In this document: piece after piece, positions 15,635-57,426 of the stretch
Layout: every line of letters starts with the position of its first letter
Position numbering within the stretch: the first letter of the stretch is position 1
Made by a program: the position numbers and the translations under genes
Notes under the pieces: generated by a model
What the model saw: the letters and a program-made list of their open reading frames with translations, nothing else
Told to the model about the DNA's origin: nothing
Databases searched by the model: none
Assembly: GCF_003334785.1 (NCBI RefSeq)
Contig: NZ_QOWV01000004.1
Strand: one strand, 5' to 3'
Length of the DNA stretch: 64,000 nucleotides
Source of the DNA: Escherichia coli
Lineage (GTDB): Bacteria > Pseudomonadota > Gammaproteobacteria > Enterobacterales > Enterobacteriaceae

Positions 15635-15752
15635 CGTTCACCTCATTCGCTATATATTGTCATATATAGCGATATTTTAGGCAAAGAACGACTTTTGCGC
15701 ACGCTATTTTTTCATGCTTGTTTAAGACGTAATCCCGTAAGAGATAAACCTA

Positions 15753-16637
15753 TCAGGAGAGATATTTATCGAACCATTTCAGTGTCCTTTGCCAGGCAAG
15801 ATCGGCGGCAGATTTGTCATAACGGGGCGTGGAATCATTATGGAATCCGTGATTAACCCCCGGATAGATATACGCCTCATAAACCTTATTATTGGCTTTC
15901 AACGCCGCCTCGTAAGCAGGCCAGCCCTCGTTGATTCGGGTGTCCAGTTCCGCGAAGTGGAGTAGTAAAGGCGCTTCAATCTTCGCCACATCGGCAGTGG
16001 GTGCCTGACGACCATAAAACGGCACCGCGCAGGCCAGTTCCGGATACGCGACAGCCGCCGCGTTCGATACGCCACCGCCATAGCAAAATCCGGTAATACC
16101 CACTTTGCCTGTCGCTTGCGGATAGCGTTGCATAAACTCAATTGCGGCAAAGAAATCATTCATCAGTTTGTTGGATCAACCTGCTGTTGCAGCTCACGAC
16201 CTTTATCATCATTTCCCGGATAACCTCCAACGGAACTTAAGCCGTCAGGTGCCAGGGCGATATACCCCGCCTTCGCCACTCGCCGTGCCACATCTTCGAT
16301 ATACGGATTCAGTCCACGATTCTCATGCACCACCACTACGGCTGGCGTTTTGCCGCTCATCTTTGCGGGCTTCACCAGATAACCCCGCACCTCGCCGTGA
16401 CCATTTGGCGAAGGATACGTGATGTACTCAGCAACAATTTCCGGGTCGGTAAACTCTACCTGAGTCGCCAGCGCATAATTTGGCTTGAGCAAATCAAACA
16501 ACGCTAATGCCGTCATCCCGCCTACCGCACTTCGCCGCAAGGTTGAGGAACTCACGTTTCGAGATTTTCCCGTGAGCGTAATAGTCATAGTAATCCAGCA
16601 ACTCTTGTGGGAAATCTTTGGCGGTTAAACGCGGCAT
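15753..16637 (-). pseudogene. yghX: Dienelactone hydrolase-family gene yghX, disrupted by two frameshifts
   Basis: Three consecutive segments in minus frames 2/1/2 (16494-16682, 16163-16588, 15753-16163) each encode sensible dienelactone hydrolase sequence. Confidence 0.85.
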
Positions 16638-16793
16638 CGTTGCACTCCTCAGTTGGTGTTTTTTTAAGCAAAGCATAAGCACGTGTTTTTGCCCAGTTTT
16701 TCGTCACTCTGTGAGCCAGACTACGGGATACGCGCTGGCGAATCGCTAAACTAGAAACATTGTTTCGAAATTGAACGGTGGAAAGGAGAGGTC

Positions 16794-19504: not shown

Positions 19505-19710
19505 GCGAAAACGCCTTATCCGCCTACAAACGCATGAAGATTCAACATGTTGCAATAGATTTTGTAGGCCTGATAAGCGTAGCGCATCAGGCATTGAGCA
19601 CCTAATGCCGGATGCGTCGTGAACGCCTTATCCGGCCTACAAACGCACGAAGATTCAACATGTTGCAATAGATTTTGTAGGCCTGATGAGCGTAGCGCAT
19701 CAGGCAATTC
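19505..19710. repeat. BIME/REP cluster: two tandem ~84-bp units
   Basis: Units 19511-19592 and 19623-19706 near-identical, each containing inverted REP-like arms gcctacaaa / tttgtaggc. Confidence 0.85.
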
Positions 19711-25415: not shown

Positions 25416-25519
25416 GCTTTTTACGCCTCAAACTTTCGTTTTCGGGCATTTCGTCCAGACTTAAGTTCACAACACCTCACCGGAGCCTGCTCCGGTGAGT
25501 TCATATAAAGGAGGAACGT

Positions 25520-53363: not shown

Positions 53364-53630
53364 GGTAAAAAAACCTCACTAAAATTATGGTTACCAGAAT
53401 CAGGGCAGTCTTAGGAGTGGCGGCATATAGCCAAAATAACGTGAGCGGGTCCATGCCCGACAGAATCGTTACTCTCTCCCATCCGGACTCTAACCGTCGG
53501 CCCCGGAATTACACCGGATCTGCTGTCCTTTGAGTTCGCACCCAAAGCGCTCGCGGGCTTTCAACTGAGTTGATTTACCGCCGGTGGGGAATTTCGCCCC
53601 GCCCTGAGAATAAGCGGATTCACTATAACG
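53364..53630 (-). promoter_or_regulatory. FMN riboswitch (RFN element) in ribB 5' leader
   Basis: Minus-strand leader contains the conserved core ...ttctcagggcggggcgaaattccccaccggcggtaaatcaactcagttgaaagcccgcgagcgctttgggtgcgaactcaaaggacagcagatccggtgtaattccggggccgacggttagagtccggatgggagagagt (aptamer about 53470-53625). Confidence 0.85.
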
Positions 53631-54912: not shown

Positions 54913-57426
54913 GTGGATCAGATGTATAAAAAATTAAAATTAACCACAATAAGCGAATTGATTAAAAATATTTATTGTTCATTATCCGTTATCATCATTG
55001 GTTGTGCGTCAGCTTATGCCGTTGAATTCAACAAAGATTTAATCGAAGCCGAAGATCGTGAAAACGTTAACCTTTCCCAATTTGAAACTGATGGCCAATT
55101 ACCCGTCGGCAAATATTCACTAAGTACTCTGATTAATAATAAGAGGACGCCAATCCACCTTGACCTCCAATGGGTATTAATTGATAACCAAACTGCAGTT
55201 TGCGTGACACCAGAGCAATTAACATTATTAGGATTTACTGATGAATTTATTGAAAAAACTCAGCAAAACCTGATCGATGGTTGTTACCCTATCGAAAAAG
55301 AAAAACAAATTACAACTTATCTCGATAAAGGGAAAATGCAATTATCCATATCTGCACCTCAGGCATGGTTAAAATACAAAGATGCAAACTGGACGCCTCC
55401 TGAACTTTGGAATCATGGTATTGCTGGGGCATTTCTTGACTACAATTTATATGCCTCTCATTATGCACCACATCAGGGCGATAATTCGCAAAATATAAGT
55501 TCCTATGGGCAGGCTGGGGTTAATCTTGGGGCCTGGCGCCTGCGTACTGATTACCAGTACGATCAGTCATTTAACAATGGCAAAAGCCAGGCGACCAACC
55601 TGGATTTTCCGCGTATTTATTTGTTTCGCCCAATCCCAGCAATGAATGCAAAACTAACTATAGGTCAATACGATACTGAATCCTCTATTTTCGACTCTTT
55701 CCATTTTTCTGGCATTTCGTTGAAAAGCGATGAGAATATGTTACCGCCAGACCTACGTGGTTACGCACCGCAAATCACGGGTGTCGCACAAACGAATGCA
55801 AAGGTCACTGTCTCACAGAACAACCGTATTATTTATCAAGAAAATGTTCCTCCAGGCCCATTTGCTATTACCAATTTATTCAATACATTACAGGGGCAAC
55901 TTGACGTCAAGGTTGAAGAAGAGGACGGACGCGTTACGCAATGGCAAGTTGCATCTAATAGTATTCCTTATCTGACGCGTAAAGGGCAGATTCGCTACAC
56001 CACTGCTATGGGTAAACCGACCAGCGTTGGTGGTGATTCCTTACAACAACCCTTCTTCTGGACTGGTGAATTCTCATGGGGTTGGCTGAACAATGTATCC
56101 CTGTATGGTGGTTCAGTTTTAACAAACCGTGATTATCAATCTCTGGCTGCCGGCGTTGGTTTTAACCTTAACTCATTAGGTTCATTATCTTTTGATGTCA
56201 CACGATCTGATGCTCAGTTGCATAATCAGGATAAAGAAACGGGTTATAGCTACCGCGCTAACTATTCAAAACGTTTTGAATCTACCGGTAGCCAGCTCAC
56301 TTTCGCTGGTTACCGTTTCTCTGATAAAAACTTTGTGACAATGAATGAATATATCAATGACACTAACCATTACACGAATTATCAGAATGAAAAAGAGAGT
56401 TATATTGTCACGTTTAACCAGTATCTTGAATCATTAAGGTTAAATACATACGTAAGTTTGGCTCGTAATACTTACTGGGACGCCAGCAGTAATGTGAATT
56501 ATTCATTATCACTTAGCCGCGATTTTGATATCGGGCCATTAAAAAACGTCTCCACTTCTCTAACATTTAGCCGAATAAACTGGGAAGAAGACAACCAGGA
56601 TCAACTGTACCTAAATATTTCGATTCCCTGGGGAACTAGTAGAACATTGAGCTATGGTATGCAACGAAATCAGGATAATGAGATTTCGCATACTGCTTCG
56701 TGGTATGACTCTTCCGATCGAAATAATTCCTGGAGCGTTTCTGCTTCAGGCGACAATGATGAATTCAAAGATATGAAAGCGTCACTACGCGCCAGTTATC
56801 AGCATAATACCGAGAACGGTCGACTCTACCTCTCCGGTACATCACAGCGAGACAGTTATTATTCTCTGAATGCCAGTTGGAATGGTTCATTCACTGCGAC
56901 TCGCCACGGTGCCGCTTTCCACGACTATAGCGGTAGTGCTGACTCGCGTTTTATGATCGACGCAGACGGCACTGAAGATATTCCGTTGAACAATAAACGC
57001 GCGGTAACTAATCGGTATGGCATCGGAGTTATTCCATCAGTCAGCAGTTACATAACAACATCATTAAGTGTTGATACCCGAAATCTGCCAGAAAATGTGG
57101 ATATCGAAAACTCGGTTATCACCACCACCTTAACCGAGGGTGCTATTGGCTACGCCAAACTTGATACCCGCAAGGGCTACCAAATCATAGGGGTTATTCG
57201 CCTGGCAGATGGTAGTCATCCACCACTGGGGATTAGCGTAAAAGATGAAACCAGCCACAAAGAATTAGGACTGGTTGCTGATGGCGGCTTTGTATACCTC
57301 AACGGCATTCAGGATGATAACAAACTTGCTTTACGCTGGGGTGACAAATCTTGTTTTATTCAACCACCCAATAGCAGCAACTTAACCACCGGAACGGCTA
57401 TTTTACCGTGTATTAGCCAAAATTAA
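54913..57426 (+). CDS. yqiG: Fimbrial outer membrane usher YqiG, uninterrupted
   Basis: 837-aa continuous ORF, usher family; no insertion sequence present. Confidence 0.92.
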   Translation: MDQMYKKLKLTTISELIKNIYCSLSVIIIGCASAYAVEFNKDLIEAEDRENVNLSQFETDGQLPVGKYSLSTLINNKRTPIHLDLQWVLIDNQTAVCVTPEQLTLLGFTDEFIEKTQQNLIDGCYPIEKEKQITTYLDKGKMQLSISAPQAWLKYKDANWTPPELWNHGIAGAFLDYNLYASHYAPHQGDNSQNISSYGQAGVNLGAWRLRTDYQYDQSFNNGKSQATNLDFPRIYLFRPIPAMNAKLTIGQYDTESSIFDSFHFSGISLKSDENMLPPDLRGYAPQITGVAQTNAKVTVSQNNRIIYQENVPPGPFAITNLFNTLQGQLDVKVEEEDGRVTQWQVASNSIPYLTRKGQIRYTTAMGKPTSVGGDSLQQPFFWTGEFSWGWLNNVSLYGGSVLTNRDYQSLAAGVGFNLNSLGSLSFDVTRSDAQLHNQDKETGYSYRANYSKRFESTGSQLTFAGYRFSDKNFVTMNEYINDTNHYTNYQNEKESYIVTFNQYLESLRLNTYVSLARNTYWDASSNVNYSLSLSRDFDIGPLKNVSTSLTFSRINWEEDNQDQLYLNISIPWGTSRTLSYGMQRNQDNEISHTASWYDSSDRNNSWSVSASGDNDEFKDMKASLRASYQHNTENGRLYLSGTSQRDSYYSLNASWNGSFTATRHGAAFHDYSGSADSRFMIDADGTEDIPLNNKRAVTNRYGIGVIPSVSSYITTSLSVDTRNLPENVDIENSVITTTLTEGAIGYAKLDTRKGYQIIGVIRLADGSHPPLGISVKDETSHKELGLVADGGFVYLNGIQDDNKLALRWGDKSCFIQPPNSSNLTTGTAILPCISQN

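What the first reader, a model, noticed from the sequence alone, without database searches (positions are those of the whole stretch)
15753..16637. Dienelactone hydrolase gene yghX disrupted by two frameshifts
Three consecutive segments in different minus-strand frames (2, 1, 2) each encode sensible hydrolase sequence: [36 protein letters not shown], then ...[13 protein letters not shown]...[33 protein letters not shown]..., then MNDFFAAIEFMQRYPQATGKVGITGFCYGGG.... The shifts lie near 16520 and 16165. The gene is therefore decayed, consistent with its pseudogene status in K-12 as I remember it.
Basis: partly seen in the sequence, partly recalled or inferred. Interest (0 to 1): 0.25.

Follow-up and report, generated by a model that had tools for sequence, protein, structure and literature searches.

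The report
Frameshifted yghX hydrolase pseudogene
This is the well-known decayed copy of the E. coli hydrolase gene yghX, broken by two small real deletions; it is ordinary, except that its first fragment is the peptide studied in K-12 as the "small protein" YqhI.

Summary
Window 15753-16637 (minus strand) is yghX, lying between gpr and yghW. It is split into three pieces, and each matches consecutive parts of the YghX-family profile (E 5e-15, 2e-69, 5e-78).

Alignment to intact alleles places the two lesions:
- A 2-bp deletion (GAAG[TA]TGCGG) between window 16530 and 16529.
- A 1-bp deletion (CCAA[C]CAAAC), leaving the single C at window 16170.

Neither lesion sits in a homopolymer run. The coding sequence is identical to K-12, where RefSeq marks it "frameshifted".

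These are not sequencing errors. Of 5426 complete E. coli genomes, about 1197 carry both deletions and about 306 carry only the 2-bp one. No genome was found with only the 1-bp deletion, so the lesions are nested and the 2-bp deletion came first.

The intact protein (295 aa, structure PDB 4ZV9) is a dienelactone-hydrolase-fold enzyme with a conserved Tat-like N-terminal leader. The frameshifts separate Glu106 (piece 2) from the Cys186-Asp233-His264 triad (piece 3).

Piece 1 (47 aa) is exactly the published K-12 small protein YqhI: 36 native leader residues plus an 11-residue frameshifted tail.

Verdict: already known, low interest.

The parts
15753..16637 (-). Whole yghX pseudogene (885 nt; the intact gene is 888 nt and encodes 295 aa)
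   Evidence: The coordinates equal the RefSeq 'YghX family hydrolase, frameshifted' CDS in identical alleles. Aligned to intact alleles.
16645..16650 (-). Shine-Dalgarno-like GAGGAG, 7 nt upstream of the ATG. The 160 nt upstream are identical to those of the intact O157 allele.
   Evidence: Sequence read. Upstream comparison. Function is inferred, not tested.
16494..16637 (-). Piece 1, the yqhI ORF (47 aa plus stop). Codons 1-36 (16530-16637) are the native YghX N-terminus. Codons 37-47 (16497-16529, [11 protein letters not shown]) are a frameshifted tail.
   Evidence: The translation is identical to the published YqhI sequence (PMC6001520) and to b4755 in NC_000913.3. Pfam PF23678 'YqhI-like' matches residues 1-36 of intact YghX.
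16529..16530 (-). Lesion 1: junction of a 2-bp deletion (TA or AT lost from GAAG-TA-TGCGG; intact codon 37, TAT). It lies at the start of the hydrophobic core of the leader.
   Evidence: Alignment A1. Coordinates computed.
16166..16528 (-). Piece 2: native residues 38-157 read in the +1 frame, ending ...DPT-N-stop (TGA 16163-16165). It contains Glu106 (the ClcD Glu36 equivalent) and the first half of the alpha/beta-hydrolase domain. It has no native start codon.
   Evidence: NF041440 profile positions 34-155, E 2e-69. Glu106 mapped by alignment to ClcD chain 4u2c.
16170..16170 (-). Lesion 2: the single C left from CC after a 1-bp deletion (CCAACCAAAC > CCAACAAAC; intact codon 157/158)
   Evidence: Alignment A1. 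Coordinates.
15753..16163 (-). Piece 3: native residues Met160-Ser295 plus stop. It contains the full catalytic triad Cys186 (GFCYGG), Asp233 and His264. Its ATG overlaps the stop of piece 2 (TGATG).
   Evidence: NF041440 profile positions 158-292, E 5.1e-78. Triad mapped against ClcD Cys123/Asp171/His202.

Best explanation
This is a recently inactivated gene (a unitary pseudogene) for YghX, a Cys-His-Asp alpha/beta-hydrolase of the dienelactone hydrolase fold.

The intact enzyme carries a conserved N-terminal leader of about 58 residues that looks like a twin-arginine (Tat) export signal.

In one E. coli lineage, a 2-bp deletion in codon 37 first cut the leader off from the enzyme. That left two things: a 47-codon ORF (YqhI) behind the still-active start signals, and a leaderless ORF that still covers the whole enzyme domain.

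Within that lineage, a second deletion of 1 bp at codon 157/158 then split the enzyme domain itself. It separated Glu106 from the Cys186-Asp233-His264 triad. The window carries both lesions, so no functional hydrolase can be made.

What is shown:
- The lesions, their positions and their reality.
- Their nesting across genomes.
- The identity of piece 1 with YqhI.
- The fold and catalytic residues.

What is inferred:
- Tat export of the intact protein.
- Loss of all enzymatic function.
- That YqhI is a by-product of the decay and not an evolved small protein.
For: Identity and lesions:
- The three pieces hit consecutive parts of NF041440.
- Alignment to intact alleles shows only a -2 and a -1 deletion, plus one SNP, relative to the nearest intact allele, HH97.
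- The CDS is identical to K-12, where it is annotated 'frameshifted' and as pseudogene b4658.

Reality and order of the lesions, by junction-specific probes over 5426 complete genomes:
- Both deletions: 941.
- About 256 more carry both deletions plus a G>A SNP 4 nt from junction 1 that blocked the probe. Examples are L010 and L011.
- Only the 2-bp deletion: 306, including strains HS and ATCC 8739.
- 1-bp deletion with an intact site 1: 0.

Function lost:
- The repaired protein scores 587 bits against a cutoff of 460 for NF041440, and Pfam DLH E 3.3e-48.
- It is near-identical to PDB 4ZV9 over residues 59-294.
- Glu106, Cys186, Asp233 and His264 align with ClcD Glu36, Cys123, Asp171 and His202.
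- Cys186 and His264 are near-invariant and Asp233 is invariant across 28 diverse homologs.

Leader:
- The consensus LYDxYxH-x4-RRxFL, then an Ala/Gly-rich hydrophobic stretch, then AxA, is conserved in homologs of 37-68% identity.
- TIGR01409 (TAT signal) scores 16.4 and 15.8 bits against a cutoff of 16.7 in two RR-bearing homologs.
- The 4ZV9 construct starts just after the AxA motif.

Piece 1 is still expressed in K-12:
- YqhI is listed among the small proteins identified in the epitope-tagging study PMC6001520.
- A preprint (PMC11429745) states that it was validated by genomic epitope tagging and that it is induced at low Mg2+.
- yghX mRNA is detected in RNA-seq (PMC9746237).
Against: Nothing contradicts pseudogene status. 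The caveats are:
- Translation of pieces 2 and 3 was not tested. Piece 3 starts with the native Met160 in a TGATG stop-start overlap, which could allow some re-initiation.
- The E. coli leader has KR, not RR, and does not hit the TAT-signal model. Export by Tat is therefore an inference.
- The site-1 probes cannot seed in CFT073-type backgrounds. 'No genome with only the 1-bp deletion' therefore holds only for backgrounds the probes can read.
- The genome collection is enriched in K-12 laboratory derivatives, so the percentages are not natural frequencies.
Confidence: 0.94

Rival explanations
1. Sequencing or assembly error: the source strain really has one continuous 888-nt ORF.
For: Single-base indels are the commonest assembly error. 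No reads are available for this window.
Against: The identical two lesions are present in 941 genomes, plus about 256 more with a nearby SNP, out of 5426 independently sequenced complete genomes. These include many K-12 resequencings. Neither site is a homopolymer run. A 2-bp loss from GTATG is not a typical platform error.
Confidence: 0.01
2. Programmed or leaky recoding: ribosomes shift +1 near the rare AGG-CGG codons just after lesion 1, then shift -1 near A-AAC-TGA at lesion 2, and so still make some full-length enzyme.
For: In the YqhI frame, the codons after the junction are TGC GGT AGG CGG. From general knowledge, not tested here, tandem rare Arg codons can provoke +1 slippage. Piece 2 ends at a stop codon directly after the lesion.
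Against: Two independent, differently directed shifts would both be needed. Neither site has a canonical slippery motif (no X XXY YYZ heptamer, no CUU UGA type site). The lesions are recent deletions in a gene that is a plain single ORF in about 72% of the genomes counted. They are not conserved features. YqhI is listed at 47 aa, that is, terminated in frame (PMC6001520).
Confidence: 0.02
3. The fragments have functions of their own. YqhI (piece 1) could be a newly born functional small protein acting in the low-Mg2+ response, and/or pieces 2 and 3 could be translated and reassemble into an active split enzyme.
For: YqhI is made in K-12, and its ribosome footprints rise at low Mg2+. A yqhI deletion lowers growth yield at low Mg2+ (PMC11429745). 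Piece 3 has an ATG in a TGATG stop-start overlap.
Against: - The deletion phenotype was not complemented by plasmid-borne YqhI, and the authors conclude it is not directly due to the protein.
- The 11-residue tail varies between strains: CGRRDD, CSRRDD and CSGRDD.
- Piece 2 has no native start codon.
- From general knowledge of the fold, the split falls inside the alpha/beta-hydrolase core.
- The ORF does not exist as a separate unit in the roughly 72% of counted genomes that lack the 2-bp deletion.
Confidence: 0.05

Closest known systems
yghX pseudogene of E. coli K-12 (b4658; RefSeq/PGAP 'YghX family hydrolase, frameshifted')
   Same: The 885-nt coding region is identical, with the same two deletions and the same neighbours gpr, yghW and hybO.
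   Different: No difference within the gene. There is one SNP 48 nt upstream (window 16685: C here, T in K-12). The window as a whole is not K-12, because its left end carries an island end and a truncated pitB. The curated MG1655 record draws b4658 over pieces 2+3 only (836 nt). PGAP draws all 885 nt.
Intact YghX of E. coli O157:H7 and other strains (WP_001302757.1, WP_001137768.1; crystal structure PDB 4ZV9, 'uncharacterized protein')
   Same: Same locus. The nearest intact allele, HH97, differs from the window allele only by the two deletions and one SNP. The structure covers residues 59-294.
   Different: The intact gene is a single 295-codon ORF. Its substrate and physiological role are still unknown.
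Dienelactone hydrolase ClcD (carboxymethylenebutenolidase, Pseudomonas; PDB 1DIN, 4U2C)
   Same: Same Pfam family (PF01738). The Cys-Asp-His triad and the Glu36 equivalent align.
   Different: The sequence relationship is distant (E about 4e-15). YghX has an extra N-terminal leader of about 58 residues that ClcD lacks. No chlorocatechol pathway context was seen around yghX in the window's gene map, so the EC 3.1.1.45 label is a family name and not a shown activity.
Small protein YqhI (b4755, UniProt YQHI_ECOLI; Pfam PF23678 'YqhI-like')
   Same: Piece 1 is identical to the published 47-aa sequence.
   Different: It is not an independent gene family. Residues 1-36 are the N-terminus of YghX, and PF23678 is recorded on every full-length YghX homolog listed. 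Residues 37-47 are out-of-frame read-through created by the 2-bp deletion.

Membership tests
YghX family hydrolase (NCBIfam NF041440) | Whole-protein score above the curated cutoff (460 bits) | tested here: not met
   The window's pieces score 55, 234 and 262 bits separately. So this is a disrupted member of the family and does not encode a member protein.
YghX family hydrolase (NCBIfam NF041440) | Orthologous position and near-identity to intact yghX alleles | tested here: met
   Same gpr-yghX-yghW-hybO context. Only the two deletions and one SNP separate it from the intact HH97 allele.
Dienelactone hydrolase family (Pfam PF01738) | Full-length DLH domain match | tested here: met
In the window the domain is split at residue 157/158.
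Dienelactone hydrolase family (Pfam PF01738) | Cys-Asp-His catalytic triad (ClcD Cys123, Asp171, His202) and the Glu36 equivalent | tested here: met
   Cys186, Asp233, His264 and Glu106 align to these residues in chain 4u2c. They are conserved in 28 homologs. In the window, Glu106 is on a different piece from the triad.
Dienelactone hydrolase family (Pfam PF01738) | Dienelactone (carboxymethylenebutenolide) hydrolysis | not testable with these tools
   No activity data were found. PDB 4ZV9 is deposited as 'uncharacterized protein'.
Pseudogene (frameshift-inactivated gene) | Reading frame disrupted relative to intact orthologues | tested here: met
   A -2 deletion at 16530|16529 and a -1 deletion at 16170.
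Pseudogene (frameshift-inactivated gene) | The lesions are genuine and not sequencing artefacts | tested here: met
   The same junctions occur in 941, 306 and about 256 independent complete genomes.
Pseudogene (frameshift-inactivated gene) | No functional product | not testable with these tools
   Inferred from separation of catalytic residues and loss of the leader. Piece 1 is nevertheless translated in K-12 as YqhI.
Tat (twin-arginine) signal peptide, for the intact N-terminus | S/T-R-R-x-F-L-K motif, followed by a hydrophobic region and an AxA cleavage site | tested here: inconclusive
   E. coli has S-K-R-E-F-L (KR), a hydrophobic stretch, and A-L-A at residues 56-58. Most distant homologs have RR. 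TIGR01409 scores 16.4 and 15.8 bits against a cutoff of 16.7 in two homologs, and gives no hit for E. coli.
Tat (twin-arginine) signal peptide, for the intact N-terminus | Tat-dependent export and cleavage | not testable with these tools
   The only indirect hint is that the 4ZV9 construct starts at about residue 59.
Small protein YqhI | Exact 47-aa sequence MPRL...[11 protein letters not shown] at this locus | tested here: met

The most novel reading that the evidence does not exclude
The 47-aa YqhI peptide could have acquired a physiological role in the lineage that carries the 2-bp deletion. YqhI is the n-region and Tat-like motif of a lost export signal, plus a random 11-residue tail. The role might be in the low-Mg2+ response, or might work by titrating a factor that binds the leader. 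That would make it a datable, within-species example of a small protein born from gene decay.
Probability: 0.05. Interest if true: 0.45.

Novelty: already known. Interest (0 to 1): 0.12.

Why it matters
It matters little for biology at large. yghX is a textbook K-12 pseudogene, and metabolic engineers routinely use it as a neutral integration site.

Two practical points follow from this analysis.

1. The 'small protein' YqhI is annotated as a separate gene in the MG1655 reference and is studied as a stress-induced small protein. It is in fact the amputated leader of YghX. It exists as a separate ORF only in the roughly 28% of the complete genomes counted here that carry the 2-bp deletion. Its uncomplemented deletion phenotype should be read in that light.

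2. The nested one-lesion and two-lesion alleles give a clean marker of stepwise gene decay, and of recombination (the mosaic allele in EcN_Sk), within E. coli.

Tried and rejected
1. Subtracting exact 60-mer counts (1248 vs 1197) to infer nesting. This was misleading, because a G>A SNP 4 nt from junction 1 hides about 256 double-deletion genomes. Composite junction probes and direct inspection resolved it.

2. A haplotype with the 1-bp deletion only. None was found.

3. An AC/GT dinucleotide at -16/-15, next to the ribosome-binding site, at first seemed linked to the pseudogene. Intact O157 also has AC, so it is ordinary polymorphism.

4. The promoter/terminator consensus scan gave nothing above chance, and no minus-strand promoter upstream of yghX (2 found, 1.8 expected). 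Evidence for expression therefore comes only from the literature.

5. The TAT-signal HMM on the E. coli leader gave no hit, and two homologs fell just below the cutoff. Tat export is therefore kept as an inference.

6. Searching with the 47-aa YqhI returned only short fragments, so that search alone cannot show where the motif lives. The PF23678 annotation on all full-length homologs, and the Pfam hit, do show it.

7. The Rfam scan found no RNA family inside or beside yghX.

Full report
**What is in the sequence**

On the minus strand of window 15753-16637 there are three successive open pieces.
- Piece 1 starts at the ATG at 16637 and runs for 47 codons to a stop at 16494-16496.
- Piece 2 lies inside the ORF 16163-16588.
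- Piece 3 starts at the ATG at 16163 and ends at the stop at 15753-15755.

This is not chance. Each piece hits the NCBIfam model NF041440 (YghX family hydrolase) over consecutive profile positions. The positions are 1-35, 34-155 and 158-292, with E-values 5.1e-15, 2e-69 and 5.1e-78.

**Identity of the locus**

A megablast of the region against 5426 complete E. coli genomes matches all of them, always under a feature named yghX. The neighbours are gpr (yghZ) upstream on the other strand, and yghW and hybO downstream.

In K-12 and in strains identical to the window, RefSeq marks the 885-nt CDS as 'frameshifted'. In O157:H7, HH97, 2A and CFT073 it is an intact 888-nt gene encoding 295 aa.

The window's coding sequence is identical to K-12. 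The only nearby difference is one SNP 48 nt upstream (window 16685).

The window itself is not K-12. Its first 3.9 kb carry the end of an island and a truncated pitB, and are 100% identical to chicken isolates.

**The lesions**

Alignment with three intact alleles shows exactly two indels.
- A 2-bp deletion in intact codon 37, GAAG[TA]TGCGG, with its junction between window 16530 and 16529.
- A 1-bp deletion at codon 157/158, CCAA[C]CAAAC, leaving the single C at window 16170.

Neither lies in a homopolymer run. Apart from these indels, the window allele differs from the nearest intact allele (HH97) by one substitution. The inactivation is therefore recent.

**Are the lesions real?**

I built composite probes: 44-46 nt centred on each junction, so that every 28-nt megablast seed must span a junction. 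Records covering at least 80% of a probe pair were counted.
- Both deletions: 941 genomes.
- The 2-bp deletion with an intact site 2: 306 genomes. One search shows these include strains HS and ATCC 8739.
- An intact site 1 with the 1-bp deletion: 0 genomes.

Exact 60-mers gave 1248 genomes for lesion 1 and 1197 for lesion 2. The roughly 256 genomes that have lesion 2 but were missed by the site-1 probes are explained by a G>A SNP 4 nt after junction 1. Two sampled members (L010, L011) carry both deletions plus that SNP.

The totals are therefore about 1197 genomes (22%) with both lesions and about 306 (5.6%) with only the first. I found none with only the second. The lesions are nested, and the 2-bp deletion came first. 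Sequencing error is excluded.

Two caveats apply. CFT073-type alleles cannot be read by the site-1 probes. The collection is also rich in K-12 laboratory derivatives.

**Other independent damage at the locus**
- An IS1 insertion in strain J6 (H1).
- An insertion annotated with an integrase-core protein in an O127:H6 strain (H284).
- A near-complete loss in NCTC9041 (H40).
- An in-frame loss of one Val codon in an O157:H16 strain that is still annotated as intact.
- EcN_Sk, a Nissle-type strain, carries the K-12-type double-deletion allele with a patch of 2A/CFT073-type SNPs at alignment columns 352-447. This shows spread by recombination.

**What the intact gene encodes**

The repaired protein scores 587 bits on NF041440 against a cutoff of 460. 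It has a full Pfam DLH domain over residues 84-294 (E 3.3e-48) and a 'YqhI-like' PF23678 match over residues 1-36. It is almost identical to PDB 4ZV9, an 'uncharacterized protein' whose chain covers residues 59-294.

Alignment to ClcD (chain 4u2c) equates YghX Glu106, Cys186, Asp233 and His264 with ClcD Glu36, Cys123, Asp171 and His202. Asp233 is invariant, and Cys186 and His264 are near-invariant, in 28 homologs of 36-68% identity.

In the same alignment the N-terminal ~58 residues show a conserved pattern: LYDxYxH-x4-RRxFLxR, then an Ala/Gly-rich hydrophobic stretch, then AxA. His22 and Arg28 are near-invariant. This is the layout of a twin-arginine signal peptide with a long conserved n-region.

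Three points limit that reading.
- E. coli and its close relatives have KR (S-K-R-E-F-L).
- The TAT-signal model TIGR01409 falls just under its cutoff in two RR-bearing homologs (16.4 and 15.8 bits against 16.7).
- The model does not hit the E. coli sequence at all.

Tat export of the intact enzyme is therefore my inference and has not been shown. No substrate is known. The 'carboxymethylenebutenolidase' label is a family name.

**Consequences of the lesions**

Lesion 1 falls right after Lys36, at the start of the hydrophobic core of the leader. It terminates translation from the native start after 47 codons.

In strains with lesion 1 only, an ORF still covers the entire enzyme domain. It is 278 aa, or 254 aa counted from the native Met42. 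Gene callers have predicted 254-aa proteins from such alleles.

Lesion 2, present in the window, breaks that ORF between residues 157 and 160. Glu106 and the first half of the alpha/beta-hydrolase core end up on piece 2, which has no native start. The Cys-Asp-His triad ends up on piece 3.

Piece 3 begins with the native Met160 in a TGATG stop-start overlap. Whether it is translated is unknown.

**Piece 1 is YqhI**

The 47-aa product of piece 1 (MPRL...LAAK + [11 protein letters not shown]) is letter-for-letter the small protein YqhI listed by VanOrsdel et al. 2018 (PMC6001520). That study located it between 'yghX_2' and gpr, and reported only a domain match to a glycosyltransferase superfamily.

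It is annotated as gene b4755 in NC_000913.3, where it overlaps the pseudogene b4658 by 95 nt. It also has a UniProt entry, YQHI_ECOLI.

A preprint on Mg2+-starvation small proteins (PMC11429745) reports several things:
- increased ribosome footprints at low Mg2+;
- that YqhI was among the proteins previously validated by genomic epitope tagging;
- a growth-yield defect of the yqhI deletion that was not complemented by plasmid-borne YqhI.

A full-text search for 'yghX' did not return that preprint.

My reading is that YqhI is the amputated leader of YghX: 36 native residues plus an 11-residue out-of-frame tail. It is made because the promoter and ribosome-binding site are untouched; the 160 nt upstream are identical to those of the intact O157 allele. 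The tail varies between strains: CGRRDD, CSRRDD and CSGRDD. The ORF does not exist separately in the genomes that lack lesion 1. PF23678 is recorded on every full-length YghX homolog listed.

**Rivals**

- Sequencing error is excluded by the population data.
- Recoding would need a +1 shift and then a -1 shift at sites without canonical slippery motifs, in a gene that is a plain ORF in most strains. I give it about 2%.
- A function for the fragments cannot be excluded. This could be a neo-functional YqhI or a split enzyme. The failed complementation and the variable tail argue against it. I give it about 5%.

**Comparison with what is known, and verdict**

This is the known yghX pseudogene. 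Its locus is used as a neutral integration site in many metabolic-engineering papers. Novelty: already known.

This analysis adds four things:
- the exact lesions;
- their order and frequency across E. coli;
- the mapping of catalytic residues onto the fragments;
- the point that the annotated small protein YqhI is a by-product of the first frameshift.

Interest is low.

Noticed in passing
window 1-5268: The window is not K-12. Positions 1-3870 do not align with the phylogroup-A reference record used. They carry the end of an island (JAB/RadC-like protein, DUF987, YeeU-type antitoxin, CbtA toxin, DUF4942) followed by yghD. pitB (3823-5268, minus strand) is truncated at its 3' end, and collinearity breaks at 3871. 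This stretch is 100% identical to chicken isolates Z1323CEC0007/8, where pitB is annotated as incomplete.
   Followed up: partly
window 15647-15672: A perfect 11-bp inverted repeat, TCGCTATATAT-n4-ATATATAGCGA, lies between the yghX stop and the yghW start. It overlaps the spacer and -10 element of the yghW promoter listed as TTGCCT-17-GACAAT in PMC3946193. It looks like an operator, but no regulator was identified.
   Followed up: partly
L004 (OZ040091) 1613-2449; also strains HS and ATCC 8739: About 306 genomes carry only the 2-bp deletion and keep a 278-aa ORF (254 aa from native Met42) that covers the whole hydrolase domain without its leader. This could yield a cytoplasmic enzyme if it is translated.
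   Followed up: partly
L007 (EcN_Sk, NZ_CP172017.1) 1115-1999: This Nissle-type strain carries the K-12-type double-deletion yghX allele, with a ~100-nt patch of 19 2A/CFT073-type SNPs at alignment columns 352-447. It is a recombination mosaic inside a pseudogene.
   Followed up: partly
L012 (O157:H16 Res13-Lact-PEA12-26), intact gene positions 301-303: An in-frame 3-nt deletion removes one Val of the VVVV run just before His105-Glu106. The gene is still annotated as intact, at 294 aa.
   Followed up: no
P0301 (Klebsiella pneumoniae, 48 aa), P0337 (K. michiganensis, 41 aa): Other enterobacteria have short ORFs that start like YghX/YqhI and then go out of frame at a slightly different point in the leader. 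This suggests independent truncations of the same gene near the same place.
   Followed up: no
window 55688-55696: The fimbrial usher gene (yqiG region) is uninterrupted in the window at the site where strain P21_SE1_04.20 has an IS903B insertion flanked by a 9-bp duplication.
   Followed up: no
window 62312-62461, 62687-62836, 53467-53615, 25418-25481, 8521-8597, 19567-19637: Ordinary RNA elements were found by Rfam: two SIB antitoxin RNAs (with ibs toxin genes in the annotated relative), the FMN riboswitch upstream of ribB, ES173, and naRNA4/REP-type repeats.
   Followed up: no
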